In this document: positions 2,090 to 6,034 of the stretch, piece after piece
How positions within the stretch are numbered: the first letter of the stretch is position 1
How the letters are laid out: every line of letters begins with the position of its first letter
NCBI RefSeq assembly: GCF_965641715.1
Contig: NZ_OZ282458.1
From: Escherichia coli
GTDB lineage: Bacteria > Pseudomonadota > Gammaproteobacteria > Enterobacterales > Enterobacteriaceae
Length of the DNA stretch: 7,176 nt
Direction: 5' to 3' (one strand)
Made by a program: the position numbers and the translations under genes
Notes under the pieces: model-generated
The model's database searches: none
What the model was told of the DNA's origin: nothing
The model's input: only the letters and a program-made list of their open reading frames with translations

Positions 2090-2280
2090 TTTCAGCAGTC
2101 TCTGGCTGGCAATTCCTGCGTGATTCACATGGCTGCATAGCTATGCATGTGGTTAAAATTTACCGGGTGCGATCGCGGCAGTTTTTCGGGTGGTTTGTTG
2201 CCATTTTTACCTGTCTGCTGCCGTGATCGCACCGAACGCGTTTCTGCGGTGCGGGCAACGGATGTTATGGTAAATACAAT
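2090..2280. other. cer: cer-like plasmid multimer resolution site (XerC/XerD core plus upstream accessory region with an ARG-box-like palindrome).
   Basis: The XerC-type arm GGTGCGGGCAA is at 2248-2258. A 6-bp central region CGGATG is at 2259-2264. The XerD arm TTATGGTAAAT at 2265-2275 is identical to the cer XerD arm. Upstream, GCCATTTTTACC...GCTGCCGTGATCGC..GAACGCGTTT resembles the cer accessory sequence. The palindrome TGCATAGCTATGCA at 2134-2147 lies about 107 bp upstream, where an ArgR box is expected. Confidence 0.75.
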
Positions 2281-2300: not shown

Positions 2301-2329
2301 GAAAAGTCCGCCCAGAAGACTGACTTTTC
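2301..2329 (-). terminator. Possible transcription terminator hairpin downstream of the 68-aa gene (8-bp stem GAAAAGTC/GACTTTTC, 13-nt loop, weak U tail).
   Basis: There is a perfect 8-bp inverted repeat at 2301-2308 and 2322-2329, 4 nt after the stop at 2333-2335 on the minus strand. The trailing sequence is only moderately U-rich. Confidence 0.3.
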
Positions 2330-2332
2330 AGA

Positions 2333-2539
2333 TCAACCTTCAGCATCTAACTTGTCTATCGCTTTTTTATTGCGCCGATAGGTAGCCATTAGTTCACCAT
2401 CGCCTGATTGTAAGTCACGACCTGCTTGCTCAGCATAGGTATCGTTTACAGTCTTAGCGCCTTTTTTATAGGCCTTTTTAACATCATCAAATCCGGCTTG
2501 GATGACTTCTTTCGGCTTTTCTTGAGGTAATTTAGCCAT
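2333..2539 (-). CDS. Hypothetical small basic protein (68 aa), the second gene of a coupled two-gene operon.
   Basis: Its ATG (rc of 2537-2539) lies inside the overlap ATGGCTAA with the stop of the upstream 127-aa gene, which implies translational coupling. It is Lys-rich and hydrophilic. I recognise no family by eye. Confidence 0.5.
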   Translation of the reverse strand: MAKLPQEKPKEVIQAGFDDVKKAYKKGAKTVNDTYAEQAGRDLQSGDGELMATYRRNKKAIDKLDAEG

Positions 2540-2915
2540 GCTGTGAATCCTCTATAAGGTTGATTATTTTTCCAACAGATAAGACGGCATCTTCTGTGTC
2601 GCTGATTTTATGATTTATCCAACCGTCCTCTATCTTTAATTTGTTCACTACTCCTAATGTAAAAACAACCTTTTTTTCAGGAAAGAAAATTGCAAAGGTT
2701 CTACTTTTCTCTTTCCAATCAGAGGGCGGCGTCGAACGGAACGCTACATTCCTCGATTTAAGTATCGCTTTGATTTTACTAATTAATTCTTTTTTTTGTT
2801 TATTGCTGAGATTTTTGACGAACCCTTTGCTGAGATTGTCTGTGTAATCATCAAAAGAAATATCAACTGGTTTGTTTTTTTGTTTTTTATCAGATAGATG
2901 AACAATGTTTGACAC
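2532..2915 (-). CDS. Hypothetical Lys-rich protein (127 aa), GTG start, AT-rich foreign gene.
   Basis: GTG start at 2913-2915 (rc), preceded by AGGA 6 nt upstream. An in-frame stop lies 10 codons upstream, so no longer ORF is possible. The protein has no internal Met. Its stop overlaps the start of the 68-aa gene. Codon usage is about 30% GC, unlike the plasmid backbone. Confidence 0.5.
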   Translation of the reverse strand: MSNIVHLSDKKQKNKPVDISFDDYTDNLSKGFVKNLSNKQKKELISKIKAILKSRNVAFRSTPPSDWKEKSRTFAIFFPEKKVVFTLGVVNKLKIEDGWINHKISDTEDAVLSVGKIINLIEDSQHG

Positions 2916-3059
2916 TGGATATCCTGCTTTTTGATGAATGAATACTCAGAAGAGTAGCGGAACTGTCTTGTTAGTCACAGAGGTAGAGTATCAATTCTAC
3001 GATAGATGGGTTCGAAGATCCGGCTGAGACCGTTCAGTACGCGGTCGAGATGTTATGTT

Positions 3060-3097
3060 GGGGTCTGAAGTCCAATGGAACGAAAACGTACGTTAGT
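3060..3097 (+). mobile_element. Solo 38-bp terminal inverted repeat of a Tn3-family transposon (gamma-delta/Tn1000-like). The GGGG outer end is at 3060 and the element interior points rightward.
   Basis: GGGGTCTGAAGTCCAATGGAACGAAAACGTACGTTAGT matches the Tn3 IR GGGGTCTGACGCTCAGTGGAACGAAAACTCACGTTAAG at 30 of 38 positions. Its core CCAATGGAACGAAAACGTACGTTA matches the gamma-delta IR as I recall it. I found no inverted partner copy anywhere in the window. Confidence 0.7.
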
Positions 3098-3519
3098 GAA
3101 GTAACTGTATGATATATCAAGACATAATAGACATAGAAAAACGCCATCAAAACGGTGTCTTTTTAATCGAAAATTGGCACTTAACGGACGGCATTGTCTA
3201 CTAATCGATTTTTAAGACGATAATTTTCCTCTTACCGTACATTTTCGTACGGTTGGCCCTCAAACCCCATGTTCAATGTAATGACCGTCGAAATTGCCTT
3301 TACGGGCATGAAGCAACCAGGAGCAATCATTGGCAAAGGTAACTAGAGTTCAATGCATGGTAATCATTTTTGAGCTTGTGATGCATAGAGTTGGTTGCTG
3401 TTCCATTGCGTCTCAAACTCCGTCAAGATGCTCGCCGTAAAAGCGAGCATGTCTAGTATGCCTGTTCCGCTACTGATTTTTGATGGGCGAATTCAGGGCT
3501 GGCTAGCCACCAAGAAAAA

Positions 3520-4581
3520 TTACTTTATTTCATCAAACAGGTGAGATGCAGTATAATAAACGCTTTGATCAAAGCGTCTCTCTGGGCTTAATTTATTTTG
3601 CCCGCCATTTAAAATTATTTCTTTTAATACTGATGGTGGAAGGATGGGTTTTGTTCTTCTTGGGTGATCCATATAAGCTTTTGTTATTTTTCCGTTTAGC
3701 GAGAACTCTTTATCACTTTGATATCCAAAGTTCATCTCAGTATAAATTCTATTGATGTTTGTCTTGTTTTTGCTCGCAATTTCATACACCATTCTGGCGA
3801 GTCTGGCTGATGATCTCATTAGTCTGCTGGCAGATGAATTGTTATATGAGGATCTATCAATAAAGGTTCGACACAAAGCAAAATCACTCCAGATGAATAT
3901 GTCAAAGGCATTTTGATCTAATATTGGGCTCTTGCCTTTTGTTTTCCATAATGGTTGCATTAAAAAAGGTTTCTGGTAATCAAGAAAATTTTCTTGGAAA
4001 GTGTTTAGGCAATTTAATATATTTTCTTTCTTTGAAAGAACTTCAGTTTCATTCCCCCAGTGCTGTATGCTTTCGCATGTGGATTCAAATATTTTTCTTA
4101 TTTCATGGAATTTATCGCTGCAAGAGTGCATTATGCCAAGGGCACAATAAGAAGTGCTTGCAGGTCTTATTACAATCTCTGAACTCCATTCGCTCTCGTT
4201 TTCTTTATATGTCGTGCTATCTGGGAGTACGGTTAATTTTATTTCTAGTGCTTTTAAAAAACTATTGTTTCCTTTTATAACTAGATCTATTCCTTTTATG
4301 TCATCATAAGCATACTGTTGGTATGGTTCATATTTTTTCTCAAATTGAAATTCAAGATCACTATTTTTTAATGTTGTGTTAAAAACGAAGTCAAAAGATA
4401 CTTCTTTGGCATGCACTTTTAAATCCTTATCTAAATAAAGATAAATCGGATTCATTTTGTTGTCTCTCATATAACATGCTAGAGAGGTGGGAAAAGAACT
4501 GTTAAATTGGTTCTTTCCCCACAGATCGCTCTCTTTCCTGTTGGTGTTTTTTAAACCATAAAGAGATTCTATTTTGCTCAC
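3520..4581 (-). CDS. Candidate Type II restriction endonuclease (353 aa) with a PD-(D/E)xK-like motif, divergent from the C5-MTase gene. GTG start with a strong AGGAG RBS.
   Basis: The ORF has low GC like the MTase. It sits head-to-head with the MTase, 87 bp apart. GID(99)...LE(113)IK(115) fits D-x13-E-x-K. The GTG start is 6 nt after AGGAG, and an in-frame stop just upstream rules out a longer ORF. I cannot place it in a named REase family by eye. Confidence 0.55.
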   Translation of the reverse strand: MSKIESLYGLKNTNRKESDLWGKNQFNSSFPTSLACYMRDNKMNPIYLYLDKDLKVHAKEVSFDFVFNTTLKNSDLEFQFEKKYEPYQQYAYDDIKGIDLVIKGNNSFLKALEIKLTVLPDSTTYKENESEWSSEIVIRPASTSYCALGIMHSCSDKFHEIRKIFESTCESIQHWGNETEVLSKKENILNCLNTFQENFLDYQKPFLMQPLWKTKGKSPILDQNAFDIFIWSDFALCRTFIDRSSYNNSSASRLMRSSARLARMVYEIASKNKTNINRIYTEMNFGYQSDKEFSLNGKITKAYMDHPRRTKPILPPSVLKEIILNGGQNKLSPERRFDQSVYYTASHLFDEIK

Positions 4582-5926: not shown

Positions 5927-6034
5927 ACAAAAAAACCACCGCTACCAACGGTGGTTTGTTTGCCGGAATCTAGAGCTACCAACTCTTTCTTCCGAAGGTA
6001 ACTGGCTTGGTGGAGCACAGATACCAAATACTGT
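5927..6034 (-). ncRNA. RNAI: RNAI antisense copy-number control RNA (108 nt).
   Basis: The rc of 5927-6034 begins ACAGTATTTGGTATCTG... and ends ...GGTGGTTTTTTTGTT, matching the ColE1 RNAI ends. Three stem-loops are preserved, with a few substitutions relative to pMB1. Confidence 0.85.

What the first reader, a model, noticed from the sequence alone, without database searches (positions are those of the whole stretch)
2532..2915. Translationally coupled two-gene operon (127 aa + 68 aa) of unknown function beside the R-M module: a candidate uncharacterised accessory or defence system
Two AT-rich minus-strand genes overlap in the ATGGCTAA configuration: the stop of the first lies inside the start region of the second. 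That kind of coupling is typical of toxin-antitoxin pairs, small regulators and two-component defence modules. The 127-aa protein starts at GTG, contains no internal methionine, and is strongly Lys-rich (KQKNKP, KQKKELISKIKAILK). The 68-aa protein is small, basic and hydrophilic. Neither resembles a ColE1 backbone gene such as imm, kil or exc, and I recognise no family by eye. They lie between cer and a Tn3-type IR relic, a textbook accessory-gene position next to a restriction-modification system. The whole operon spans 2333-2915.
Basis: partly seen in the sequence, partly recalled or inferred. Interest (0 to 1): 0.65.

Follow-up and report, generated by a model that had tools for sequence, protein, structure and literature searches.

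The report
Orphan two-gene cassette beside cer
The two overlapping small genes are real, always travel together, and belong to rare uncharacterised protein families that sit beside defence and toxin-antitoxin genes on mobile DNA, so they are a credible but unproven new addiction or defence module.

Summary
ORF127 (2915-2532, GTG start) and ORF68 (2539-2333, ATG start) overlap by ATGGCTAA on the minus strand. Each has its own Shine-Dalgarno sequence, and a terminator hairpin follows the pair. Both are under purifying selection (dN/dS 0.08-0.32).

Neither protein matches Pfam, NCBIfam, PADLOC, PHROGs or any PDB sequence. An exhaustive HMM search of 1.84 billion representatives found only 16 clusters. 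In every lineage examined, down to 24-43% identity, the ORF127 homologue is followed by an overlapping ORF68 homologue of 65-70 aa. They are an obligate pair.

The pair is not tied to the restriction-modification (R-M) system. Elsewhere it lies next to NsnA/GmrSD-like, Hachiman, RnlB, RelB/ParE and BrnT/CopG-like genes, at a prophage end, and alone in an Aeromonas chromosome.

In ColE1-type plasmids it forms a unit of about 0.8 kb. This unit is bounded by the cer core and by a second site with a good XerD arm but a poor XerC arm. In this window an IS101-like element splits that second site.

Best reading: a new toxin-antitoxin-like or abortive-defence cassette (about 0.4). Its function is untested.

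The parts
2532..2915 (-). ORF127. GTG start, 127 aa, pI 9.6. It has a conserved N-terminal MSN[IV][IV]xF motif and a disordered Lys-rich tail (about residues 8-20). Its core (residues 38-126) is helix, three strands, helix, predicted to resemble a Vsr/DUF559 endonuclease fold without conserved catalytic residues.
2333..2539 (-). ORF68. ATG start, 68 aa, very hydrophilic and basic. It is the obligate partner of ORF127. Invariant family residues are G27, N32, A39, G40, L43, G46, M51 and Y54.
2532..2539 (-). ATGGCTAA overlap. The start codon of ORF68 overlaps the last codons and TAA stop of ORF127, which gives translational coupling.
   Evidence: The overlap is identical in window, L005, L010, L013 and L026. 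Other lineages overlap by 14-74 nt.
2922..2925 (-). Shine-Dalgarno AGGA for ORF127, 6 nt upstream of the GTG.
   Evidence: Conserved in all plasmid lineages.
2548..2552 (-). Shine-Dalgarno GAGGA for ORF68, lying inside the 3' end of ORF127.
2943..2980 (-). Conserved upstream block, inferred to be the promoter. A GTGACT-like -35 and a TACTCT-like -10 are spaced 16 nt apart. The -10 overlaps a small palindrome TACTC-N4-GAGTA (2943-2956), a possible operator. Not validated.
   Evidence: The alignment shows conservation and one search gives coordinates. The simple consensus scan did not call a promoter here, so this is inference only.
2301..2329 (-). Intrinsic terminator hairpin directly after the ORF68 stop. 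It is kept in four lineages, with stem changes that preserve pairing.
   Evidence: (dG -13.6 to -25.9 kcal/mol, z -2.9 to -5.9)
2248..2275 (+). cer core, GGTGCGGGCAA-CGGATG-TTATGGTAAAT (XerC arm, 6-bp central region, XerD arm). It forms one border of the conserved cassette.
2134..2147 (.). Palindrome TGCATAGCTATGCA in the cer accessory region, resembling an ArgR box (recognised from memory of ColE1 cer).
   Evidence: Conserved in all plasmid lineages.
3036..3059 (+). Proximal part of 'site 2'. It has a poor XerC-like arm AGTACGCGGTC (5/11 matches), a cer-like central region GAGATG, and the first 7 nt (TTATGTT) of a good XerD arm. It lies in direct orientation with cer and forms the other border of the conserved cassette.
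3269..3277 (+). Remainder of the site-2 XerD arm (duplicated ATGTT plus CAAT), displaced by the IS101-like insertion.
   Evidence: The intact site GAGATG-TTATGTTCAAT is seen in pEC34B (L003 878-892).
3060..3268 (.). 209-bp Tn3-derived miniature element resembling IS101. It has 5-bp direct repeats ATGTT (3055-3059 and 3269-3273). It is not part of the operon, but it disrupts site 2.
   Evidence: 92.3% identity over 209/209 nt to pSC101 2024-2232. PMC13367494 gives IS101 as 209 bp.

Best explanation
SHOWN. The region 2301-2980 is a self-contained transcription unit: a conserved upstream block, two translationally coupled genes and a terminator. It encodes an obligate pair of small basic proteins from two rare families with no described members. 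ORF127 has a conserved N-terminal peptide, a disordered Lys-rich tail and an alpha/beta core. The closest structural neighbours of that core are Vsr/DUF559-type PD-(D/E)xK endonucleases, but no catalytic acidic or histidine residue is conserved. ORF68 is a hydrophilic protein of 65-70 aa that evolves more slowly than ORF127. The pair moves as a unit between unrelated mobile elements and often lies directly beside known defence or toxin-antitoxin genes. In ColE1-type plasmids it is a block of about 0.8 kb whose homology ends at the cer core on one side and at a second Xer-like site on the other.

INFERRED. The pair most likely works as a selfish addiction or abortive-defence cassette of the toxin-antitoxin type. 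One protein would bind a nucleic-acid target, or a complex containing nucleic acid, without cutting it. The other would hold it in check through a direct complex. The weak GTG start on the first gene and the strong ATG with Shine-Dalgarno on the second would set the ratio of the two proteins. My tentative assignment is ORF127 as the effector and ORF68 as the neutraliser made in excess. The opposite assignment is not excluded.

In the plasmids the cassette was probably inserted or shuffled by XerCD recombination at cer, in the manner of an IMEX or a dif module.
For: Real, coupled and selected:
- The frames, start codons, Shine-Dalgarno sequences and overlap are conserved.
- dN/dS is 0.08-0.32 for ORF127 and 0.11-0.25 for ORF68.
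- A terminator hairpin is present in four lineages.

Obligate pair:
- Every ORF127 homologue whose locus was examined has an overlapping ORF68 homologue. These include L011, L013/L028, L014, L015-18, L019, L020, L021-24, L025, L026 and L031.
- A profile search with ORF68 found only proteins of 65-70 aa plus fragments (39-83 aa) of close relatives, and no other architecture.

Orphan status:
- No hit in Pfam, NCBIfam, PADLOC, PHROGs or PDB sequences.
- 16 clusters among 1.84 billion representatives.
- 22 of 72,556 plasmids, no phage record, and 2 of 185,579 species genomes.

Fold:
- AlphaFold2 with 17 sequences gave pLDDT 75, with the core at about 80-92.
- Only K49 and W99 are invariant in the family.

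Mobile, patchy distribution next to defence or toxin-antitoxin genes:
- HindVP R-M system in the window.
- NsnA/GmrSD_N in Cronobacter pA84-3.
- Hachiman in an integrase island next to mutS.
- RnlB antitoxin (L010), RelB+ParE (L020) and BrnT-like/CopG antitoxin (L025).
- A prophage end.
- Alone between trkH and a topoisomerase gene in Aeromonas.
- A decayed integrase island in Erwinia.

Stoichiometry hint: GTG start for gene 1 in the window, Cronobacter, L010, L011, L013, L026 and L031 lineages, against ATG with a good Shine-Dalgarno for gene 2 everywhere.

Xer-bounded unit:
- Homology between the E. coli and Cronobacter plasmids runs from window 2248 to 3055-3057 in seven of the eight Cronobacter loci, which is cer core to site-2 core (L006 stops at 3007).
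- Each operon-bearing lineage has two sites with GATG plus a XerD arm, in direct orientation and 786-797 bp apart where measured. A comparator plasmid has one.
- Homology of more than 1,300 other ColE1-like plasmids stops at the cer core.
- Acinetobacter has a 768-bp toxin-antitoxin 'add' dif module as a precedent (PMC6449649).
Against: - No toxicity, neutralisation, stability or phage phenotype has been measured.
- Neither protein resembles any known toxin or antitoxin family.
- Both proteins are basic, whereas classical antitoxins are acidic.
- ORF68, the downstream and better conserved gene, would be the toxin by the usual rule of thumb. That conflicts with the argument from start codons, so the roles cannot be assigned.
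- There is no partner swapping, which is common among type II systems.
- The XerC arm of site 2 is poor (5/11). Chromosomal copies show no Xer-like flanks. No empty-site or excised form was found.
Confidence: 0.4

Rival explanations
1. The pair is a non-toxic, nucleic-acid-binding heterocomplex that serves the carrier element. It could act as a small regulator, a nucleoid-associated or anti-silencing factor for AT-rich acquired DNA, or an accessory DNA-architecture factor near recombination sites. It would not be an addiction or defence module.
For: - Both proteins are consistently basic across the family.
- ORF127 carries a strongly basic conserved helix (KKIKGILKSR) on a nuclease-like fold that lacks catalytic residues. 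This is how inactivated PD-(D/E)xK domains often act as binding modules (general knowledge).
- The pair lies at element borders: next to cer, next to P4-type integrases, and at a prophage end.
- The operon and its neighbouring cargo are AT-rich relative to the backbone.
Against: - The pair occurs alone between housekeeping genes in Aeromonas, where there is no element to serve.
- Its neighbours vary completely, so it has no conserved target locus.
- No recognisable DNA-binding motif such as HTH or RHH was found.
- The strong recurrent adjacency to toxin-antitoxin and defence genes is better explained by the main hypothesis.
Confidence: 0.25
2. The pair is a recombination accessory for its own mobility. 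It would modulate XerCD, or tyrosine-integrase, recombination at the flanking sites, in analogy with XafT of TLC phage or with directionality factors. The dead nuclease fold would bind junction or branched DNA.
For: - In plasmids the cassette is bounded by cer and a second site with a XerD arm.
- Chromosomal copies lie 0.9-1.7 kb from P4-type integrase genes.
Against: - Aeromonas and other copies have no detectable Xer-like flanks or integrase nearby.
- The window's own site 2 is destroyed by IS101, yet the operon stays intact and under selection.
- There is no similarity to any known directionality factor or Xer activator.
Confidence: 0.08
3. ORF127 is the Vsr-type very-short-patch repair nickase that commonly accompanies m5C methyltransferases. 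On this view the operon is a mundane accessory of the neighbouring HindVP/m5C R-M system.
For: - A C-5 cytosine methyltransferase lies 1.8 kb away.
- One remote family member gives a weak Pfam Vsr hit (E 0.078).
Against: - No Vsr catalytic residue is conserved. Only K49 and W99 are invariant.
- There is no significant Vsr profile match.
- The pair occurs in at least ten other contexts without any m5C methyltransferase.
- An obligate 68-aa partner is not a feature of Vsr.
Confidence: 0.03
4. The ORFs are chance reading frames in AT-rich DNA and are not expressed.
For: None beyond the general fact that AT-rich DNA yields long ORFs. The simple promoter scan found no consensus promoter upstream.
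Against: - Purifying selection on both frames.
- Conserved starts, Shine-Dalgarno sequences, overlap and terminator.
- Protein-level homologues at 24-43% identity with the same two-gene architecture in unrelated genomes.
Confidence: 0.01

Closest known systems
Type II toxin-antitoxin (addiction) modules, including the 768-bp 'add' toxin-antitoxin dif module of Acinetobacter plasmids (PMC6449649)
   Same: - Two small overlapping co-transcribed genes with their own upstream region and terminator.
- Patchy distribution on plasmids, islands and prophage ends, and as a lone insertion.
- Frequent adjacency to other toxin-antitoxin and defence genes.
- In plasmids, a unit of about 0.8 kb bounded by Xer-type sites.
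   Different: - No homology to any known toxin or antitoxin family.
- Both proteins are basic.
- The upstream gene is the larger one.
- No recognisable DNA-binding antitoxin domain.
- Toxicity is untested.
- The Xer-like sites are in direct rather than inverted orientation, and one has a degenerate XerC arm.
Vsr / DUF559-type PD-(D/E)xK endonucleases (PDB 3hrl NGO0050, 1cw0 Vsr, 3r3p I-Bth0305I)
   Different: - No conserved catalytic Asp, Glu, His or Lys in the strands.
- The insert between strand 3 and strand 4 is missing.
- No significant sequence or profile match.
- It has an extra disordered Lys-rich N-terminal tail and an obligate 68-aa partner.
- It is not linked to m5C methyltransferases outside this plasmid lineage.
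Xer-dependent modules: IMEX elements and Acinetobacter pdif/dif modules
   Same: A short gene cassette flanked by XerC/XerD-type sites and found in different plasmid contexts. Inter-plasmid homology ends at the sites. The direct orientation of the two sites matches what is expected after integration of a circle at cer, as for an IMEX.
   Different: - One flank is the plasmid's functional cer with its accessory sequences.
- The other flank has only a XerD arm plus central region, with a weak XerC arm.
- No excised circle or empty site has been observed.
- pdif modules have inversely oriented sites.
- Chromosomal copies of the pair lack such flanks.

Membership tests
Type II toxin-antitoxin system | Two adjacent, co-oriented, co-transcribed small genes, usually overlapping | tested here: met
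   An 8-nt ATGGCTAA overlap, a single upstream region and a terminator. Overlaps of 8-74 nt in all lineages where both gene starts were mapped.
Type II toxin-antitoxin system | One product is toxic and the other neutralises it by direct binding | not testable with these tools
   This needs expression and rescue experiments. Co-folding of the pair was not available.
Type II toxin-antitoxin system | Homology of at least one component to a known toxin or antitoxin superfamily | tested here: not met
   No hits in Pfam, NCBIfam, PADLOC, PHROGs or PDB sequences for the window proteins or for 17 and 10 family members.
Type II toxin-antitoxin system | Antitoxin with a DNA-binding domain and an autoregulated promoter/operator | tested here: inconclusive
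   No HTH, RHH or AbrB domain was detected. A small conserved palindrome TACTC-N4-GAGTA overlaps the putative -10, but it has not been validated.
Type II toxin-antitoxin system | Patchy, mobile-element-associated distribution, often within defence or toxin-antitoxin islands | tested here: met
   Found on plasmids, integrase islands, a prophage end and as a lone chromosomal insertion. Neighbours include an R-M system, NsnA/GmrSD_N, Hachiman, RnlB, RelB/ParE and BrnT/CopG-like genes.
Vsr/DUF559 (PD-(D/E)xK) endonuclease superfamily | Restriction-endonuclease-like alpha/beta fold | tested here: inconclusive
Vsr/DUF559 (PD-(D/E)xK) endonuclease superfamily | Significant sequence or profile similarity to the family | tested here: not met
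   A Pfam Vsr hit at E 0.078 in 1 of 17 members, and none for the window protein. hhalign against E. coli Vsr gave probability 1.6% over 24 columns.
Vsr/DUF559 (PD-(D/E)xK) endonuclease superfamily | Conserved catalytic residues (metal-binding Asp/Glu, and Lys or His) | tested here: not met
   In the 17-sequence family alignment only K49 (in helix 1) and W99 are invariant. The strand positions hold hydrophobic or variable residues.
Vsr/DUF559 (PD-(D/E)xK) endonuclease superfamily | For Vsr proper: genetic linkage to an m5C methyltransferase | tested here: not met
   Linked only in the E. coli HindVP-plasmid lineage. The linkage is absent in all the other contexts examined.
Xer-bounded module (IMEX or dif module) | Flanked by two XerC-central region-XerD type sites | tested here: inconclusive
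   The cer core scores 20/22. Site 2 has a XerD arm of 10-11/11 plus a cer-like 6-bp central region, but a XerC arm of only 5/11.
Xer-bounded module (IMEX or dif module) | The same module appears in different backbones, with homology ending at the sites | tested here: met
   Window versus Cronobacter homology starts at 2248 and, in seven of eight Cronobacter loci, ends at 3055-3057. Four lineages carry different distal cargo. General cer homology in other plasmids stops at the core.
Xer-bounded module (IMEX or dif module) | Inverted orientation of the flanking sites (pdif modules specifically) | tested here: not met
   The two sites are in direct orientation, 786-797 bp apart. Direct orientation is the IMEX-type arrangement.
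Xer-bounded module (IMEX or dif module) | XerCD-dependent excision or integration | not testable with these tools
   No empty site or circle junction was found in the collections. This needs an in vivo assay.
Catalogued anti-phage defence systems (PADLOC-DB v2) | A match of either protein to a defence-system model | tested here: not met
   No hit at E up to 10 for the window proteins. Among 17 ORF127-family members there was only one stray hit, to Csm3 at E 0.023.

The most novel reading that the evidence does not exclude
An enterobacterial minimal cassette of about 0.8 kb is mobilised by XerCD at plasmid cer sites. It carries a previously unknown two-protein toxin-antitoxin or abortive-defence system. 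Its effector is a catalytically dead Vsr-like nuclease fold that acts by binding rather than cutting, and an obligate 68-aa partner controls it.
Probability: 0.2. Interest if true: 0.7.

Novelty: new variant of a known kind. Interest (0 to 1): 0.5.

Why it matters
If confirmed, this would add a new protein-family pair to the toxin-antitoxin and defence repertoire. It would also give an example of an inactivated Vsr-type nuclease fold reused as a non-catalytic effector or binder.

It would extend Xer-bounded gene cassettes, so far documented mainly in Acinetobacter, to ColE1-type plasmids of Enterobacteriaceae. That would make cer a cargo-exchange point as well as a dimer-resolution site.

The family is very rare: 16 clusters among 1.84 billion representatives, 22 of 72,556 plasmids, and 2 of 185,579 species genomes. 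Its ecological weight is therefore small, and its value is mainly mechanistic.

Tried and rejected
- **Family scans.** Pfam, NCBIfam, PADLOC and PHROGs scans of both proteins and of their family members gave nothing significant.
- **PDB sequence searches.** Single sequences and three profiles returned only chance hits.
- **Foldseek and AFDB.** Foldseek against the PDB gave no significant hit. The afdb50 library was unavailable.
- **Profile comparison with Vsr.** hhalign of the family profile against E. coli Vsr matched only a 24-column local stretch, with probability 1.6%.
- **Phage and viral collections.** There was no match.
- **Locus searches with the full family alignments.** A narrower ORF68 alignment found only two species genomes.
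- **Literature.** No paper mentions the two RefSeq protein accessions. The one paper on pEC34B does not discuss these ORFs.
- **Rejected: a controller or accessory of the R-M system, or a Vsr repair nickase.** The pair occurs without an R-M system or methyltransferase, and no catalytic residues are conserved.
- **Rejected: a three-gene system with an upstream RHH protein.** The upstream genes in L015, L020, L022 and L025 are unrelated to each other. Those in L020 and L025 match other toxin-antitoxin families (RelB, CopG antitoxin and a weak BrnT hit).
- **Considered and dropped: Hha/TomB analogy.** The sizes are similar, but there is no sequence or fold support.
- **Xer-like flanks around chromosomal copies.** None were found.
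Full report
**1. The observation**

The window carries a 127-aa ORF at 2532-2915 on the minus strand, starting at GTG. It also carries a 68-aa ORF at 2333-2539 on the minus strand, starting at ATG. The sequence reads ...CAG CAT GGC TAA in the first frame and ATG GCT AAA in the second. The two genes therefore share ATGGCTAA at 2532-2539.

ORF127 has an AGGA 6 nt upstream of its GTG. ORF68 has a GAGGA inside the end of ORF127. The operon is 36.9% GC, against 54.5% for the mob and ori parts of the plasmid. ORF127 has no internal Met, is 15.7% Lys and has pI 9.6. ORF68 is very hydrophilic and has pI 8.9.

**2. The genes are real and coupled**

The DNA matches about 20 small mobilizable ColE1-type plasmids of E. 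coli and Salmonella at 99% or more. These are the pEC34B family, in which both ORFs are annotated only as hypothetical proteins. It also matches a Cronobacter dublinensis plasmid at 91%.

Further copies came from Cronobacter-type plasmids (L004-L009) and from a 77%-identical metagenomic contig (L010). An alignment of four lineages shows the same GTG, both Shine-Dalgarno sequences, the same ATGGCTAA overlap and both frames intact. dN/dS is 0.08-0.32 for ORF127 and 0.11-0.25 for ORF68.

A GC-rich hairpin flanked by A and T runs follows the stop codon in all four lineages. Its stem sequence changes while pairing is kept (dG -13.6 to -25.9 kcal/mol, z -2.9 to -5.9). A block of about 120 nt upstream is conserved. 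It contains a plausible but weak promoter and a small palindrome. The consensus scan did not call a promoter there, so this part is inference.

**3. Both families are orphans and form an obligate pair**

No library gave a significant match, and neither did PDB sequences. The word-indexed search found only close relatives.

The exhaustive HMMER search of 1.84 billion representatives found 16 clusters, some at only 24-43% identity. I looked up the loci of these remote relatives. In each one an ORF of 65-70 aa, homologous to ORF68, follows the ORF127 homologue and overlaps it by 8-74 nt. This held even where the gene caller had missed it, as in L020, L025 and L026.

A profile search with the ORF68 family found mainly proteins of 65-70 aa, a few truncated or variant forms (39-83 aa), and no other architecture.

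The ORF127 family shares four features:
- an N-terminal MSN[IV][IV]xF motif;
- a basic helix, KKIKGILKSR;
- 'FR' and 'GW' motifs;
- invariant K49 and W99.

The ORF68 family keeps G27, N32, A39, G40, L43, G46, M51 and Y54. ORF68 is at least as conserved as ORF127 in every lineage compared, and more conserved in all but one (for example 54% against 35% for L011). The GTG start of gene 1 recurs in the enterobacterial and Aeromonas lineages. Gene 2 always starts at ATG.

**4. Structure of ORF127**

With six close sequences the AlphaFold2 model was poor (pLDDT 61.5). With 17 diverse sequences all five models agreed (pLDDT 73-75), and the core (residues 38-126) reached roughly 80-92. Residues 1-18 were disordered.

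The weaker first model gave the same theme. Other tests did not confirm it. Foldseek found nothing significant, although AbaSI, Vsr and PvuRts1I were again near the top. hhalign against E. coli Vsr aligned only helix 1 plus strand 1, with probability 1.6%. One remote member gave Pfam Vsr at E 0.078. No acidic, His or Lys residue in the strands is conserved.

I therefore describe the core as a probable Vsr/DUF559-like fold that is catalytically degenerate. I do not file it as a member of that family.

**5. Context: the pair is not an R-M accessory**

In the window the upstream neighbours are a HindVP-family endonuclease and a C-5 cytosine methyltransferase. Elsewhere the same pair lies in these settings:
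- next to an NsnA/GmrSD_N protein in pA84-3;
- next to two unknown proteins of 273 and 242 aa in the L004-L009 plasmids;
- next to an RnlB antitoxin in L010;
- between a P4-type integrase and a Hachiman system beside mutS in L011;
- at the end of a prophage tail module in L026;
- beside RelB and ParE in L020, and beside BrnT-like and CopG-antitoxin genes in L025;
- on a 144-kb contig that carries KfrA, in L021;
- near a truncated integrase in Erwinia persicina;
- alone between trkH and a topoisomerase gene in Aeromonas sobria.

The pair is therefore an autonomous, horizontally mobile unit. It recurs beside defence and toxin-antitoxin genes, which is the classic signature of such modules.

It is rare. 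It occurs in 22 of 72,556 plasmids and in no phage record. It was found in no viral contig and in 2 of 185,579 species genomes.

**6. A Xer-bounded cassette in the plasmids**

The cer core is at 2248-2275 and reads GGTGCGGGCAA-CGGATG-TTATGGTAAAT. An ArgR-box-like palindrome lies at 2134-2147.

At the other end of the operon every plasmid lineage has a second copy of the central region plus XerD arm, in the same orientation and 786-797 bp away. An example is GAGATG-TTATGTTCAAT in pEC34B. The XerC arm of this second site is poor, at 5/11 matches.

Homology between the E. coli and Cronobacter plasmids starts at window 2248 and ends at 3055-3057 in seven of the eight Cronobacter loci (at 3007 in L006). 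This runs from one core to the other. Beyond site 2 the cargo differs in each lineage.

More than 1,300 other ColE1-like plasmids are homologous to the window's cer region only as far as 2253 or 2275-2277. One of them is 99.7% identical up to the last base of the XerD arm and unrelated afterwards.

This layout is what integration of a small circle at cer would leave behind, as with an IMEX element. Repeated Xer-mediated exchange at these sites would give the same result. It parallels the dif modules of Acinetobacter plasmids, which include a 768-bp toxin-antitoxin 'add' module (PMC6449649).

There are limits to this inference:
- one site is degenerate;
- the orientation is direct, not inverted as in pdif modules;
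- no empty site or circle was found;
- chromosomal copies have no such flanks.

In this window site 2 is split by a 209-bp element with 5-bp direct repeats. The element is 92.3% identical over its full length to the IS101 region of pSC101. PMC13367494 gives IS101 as a 209-bp element.

**7. Mechanism**

The following is shown. The region is a self-contained, coupled two-gene unit. It encodes an obligate pair of basic proteins, is mobile, and associates with defence and toxin-antitoxin genes. One protein has a nuclease-like but catalytically degenerate core.

The following is inferred, at about 0.4. The pair is a toxin-antitoxin-like addiction or abortive-defence cassette. One partner would bind a nucleic-acid target without cutting it, and the other would neutralise it in a complex. 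The weak GTG on gene 1 and the strong ATG on gene 2 suggest that ORF68 is made in excess and acts as the neutraliser. The higher conservation of ORF68 and the usual gene order point the other way, so the roles stay open.

The basic charge of both proteins and the lack of any known toxin or antitoxin domain argue against a classical type II system. They keep alive the rival reading of a non-toxic nucleic-acid-binding accessory complex (about 0.25). A role as a recombination accessory is possible (about 0.08). A Vsr repair role for the m5C methyltransferase is essentially excluded (0.03). So are chance ORFs (0.01).

**8. Novelty and verdict**

Both protein families are undescribed. The kind of module is familiar: a small two-gene cargo cassette of the toxin-antitoxin or defence type, carried on a Xer-bounded unit. 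I rate it a new variant of a known kind with interest 0.5. It is a well-supported lead with clear experiments to run. The family is rare and its function is unproven.

Noticed in passing
window 3060-3268 (direct repeats at 3055-3059 and 3269-3273): This is a complete 209-bp Tn3-derived miniature element with terminal inverted repeats and a 5-bp target duplication ATGTT. It is 92.3% identical over its full length to pSC101 2024-2232, the IS101 region. pEC34B-type plasmids lack it. It is inserted inside the XerD-like arm of the second Xer-like site.
   Followed up: yes
window 2248-2277; L032 1987-2002: Homology of more than 1,300 ColE1-like plasmids with this cer region ends at the cer core (window 2253 or 2275-2277). 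One plasmid, CP122635, is 99.7% identical up to the end of the XerD arm and then carries unrelated ParA cargo. In this plasmid group cer acts as a cargo-exchange junction.
   Followed up: partly
L013 4855-4886; L026 9458-9517; L015 5583-5604: CA/TG-rich microsatellite-like repeats (CACATA and ACATAC units) lie 100-400 bp upstream of the gene pair in three lineages, two of them only distantly related. Their significance is unknown.
   Followed up: no
window 2532-2630 (last ~30 codons of ORF127): Synonymous change is reduced here, at about 1 synonymous-difference codon per 16 against 3-5 elsewhere, in comparisons with the 77%-identical lineage. This suggests an RNA-level constraint around the coupling region, such as the Shine-Dalgarno sequence or a hairpin at 2585-2601.
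   Followed up: partly
L005 2357-3906 (273-aa and 242-aa genes); L001 4259-5905: The variable cargo beyond site 2 in Cronobacter plasmids takes two forms. One is an uncharacterised 273+242-aa pair, whose 242-aa protein has a weak PADLOC PD-Lambda-5_B hit (E 0.003). The other is an NsnA/GmrSD_N protein plus a 213-aa unknown. Both look like further defence candidates.
   Followed up: partly
window 3520-4581 versus L003 1135-2085: The HindVP-family endonuclease is listed as 353 aa in the window (GTG start). In pEC34B it is annotated as 316 aa. I did not examine whether this reflects a different start choice or a truncation.
   Followed up: no
window 5927-6032 (-): The only Rfam match at gathering threshold in the window is RNAI (65.9 bits). 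This confirms a ColE1-type replicon. No Rfam family covers the cer/Rcd region.
   Followed up: yes
window 2783-2905 (-); P0006, P0007, CP061256.1: Some database versions of ORF127 are frameshifted in the A-rich 5' part (runs such as AAAAAACAAAAAAACAAA). This gives the alternative N-terminus MITQTISAKG.... It is probably a homopolymer sequencing error, but real slippage at these runs was not excluded.
   Followed up: no
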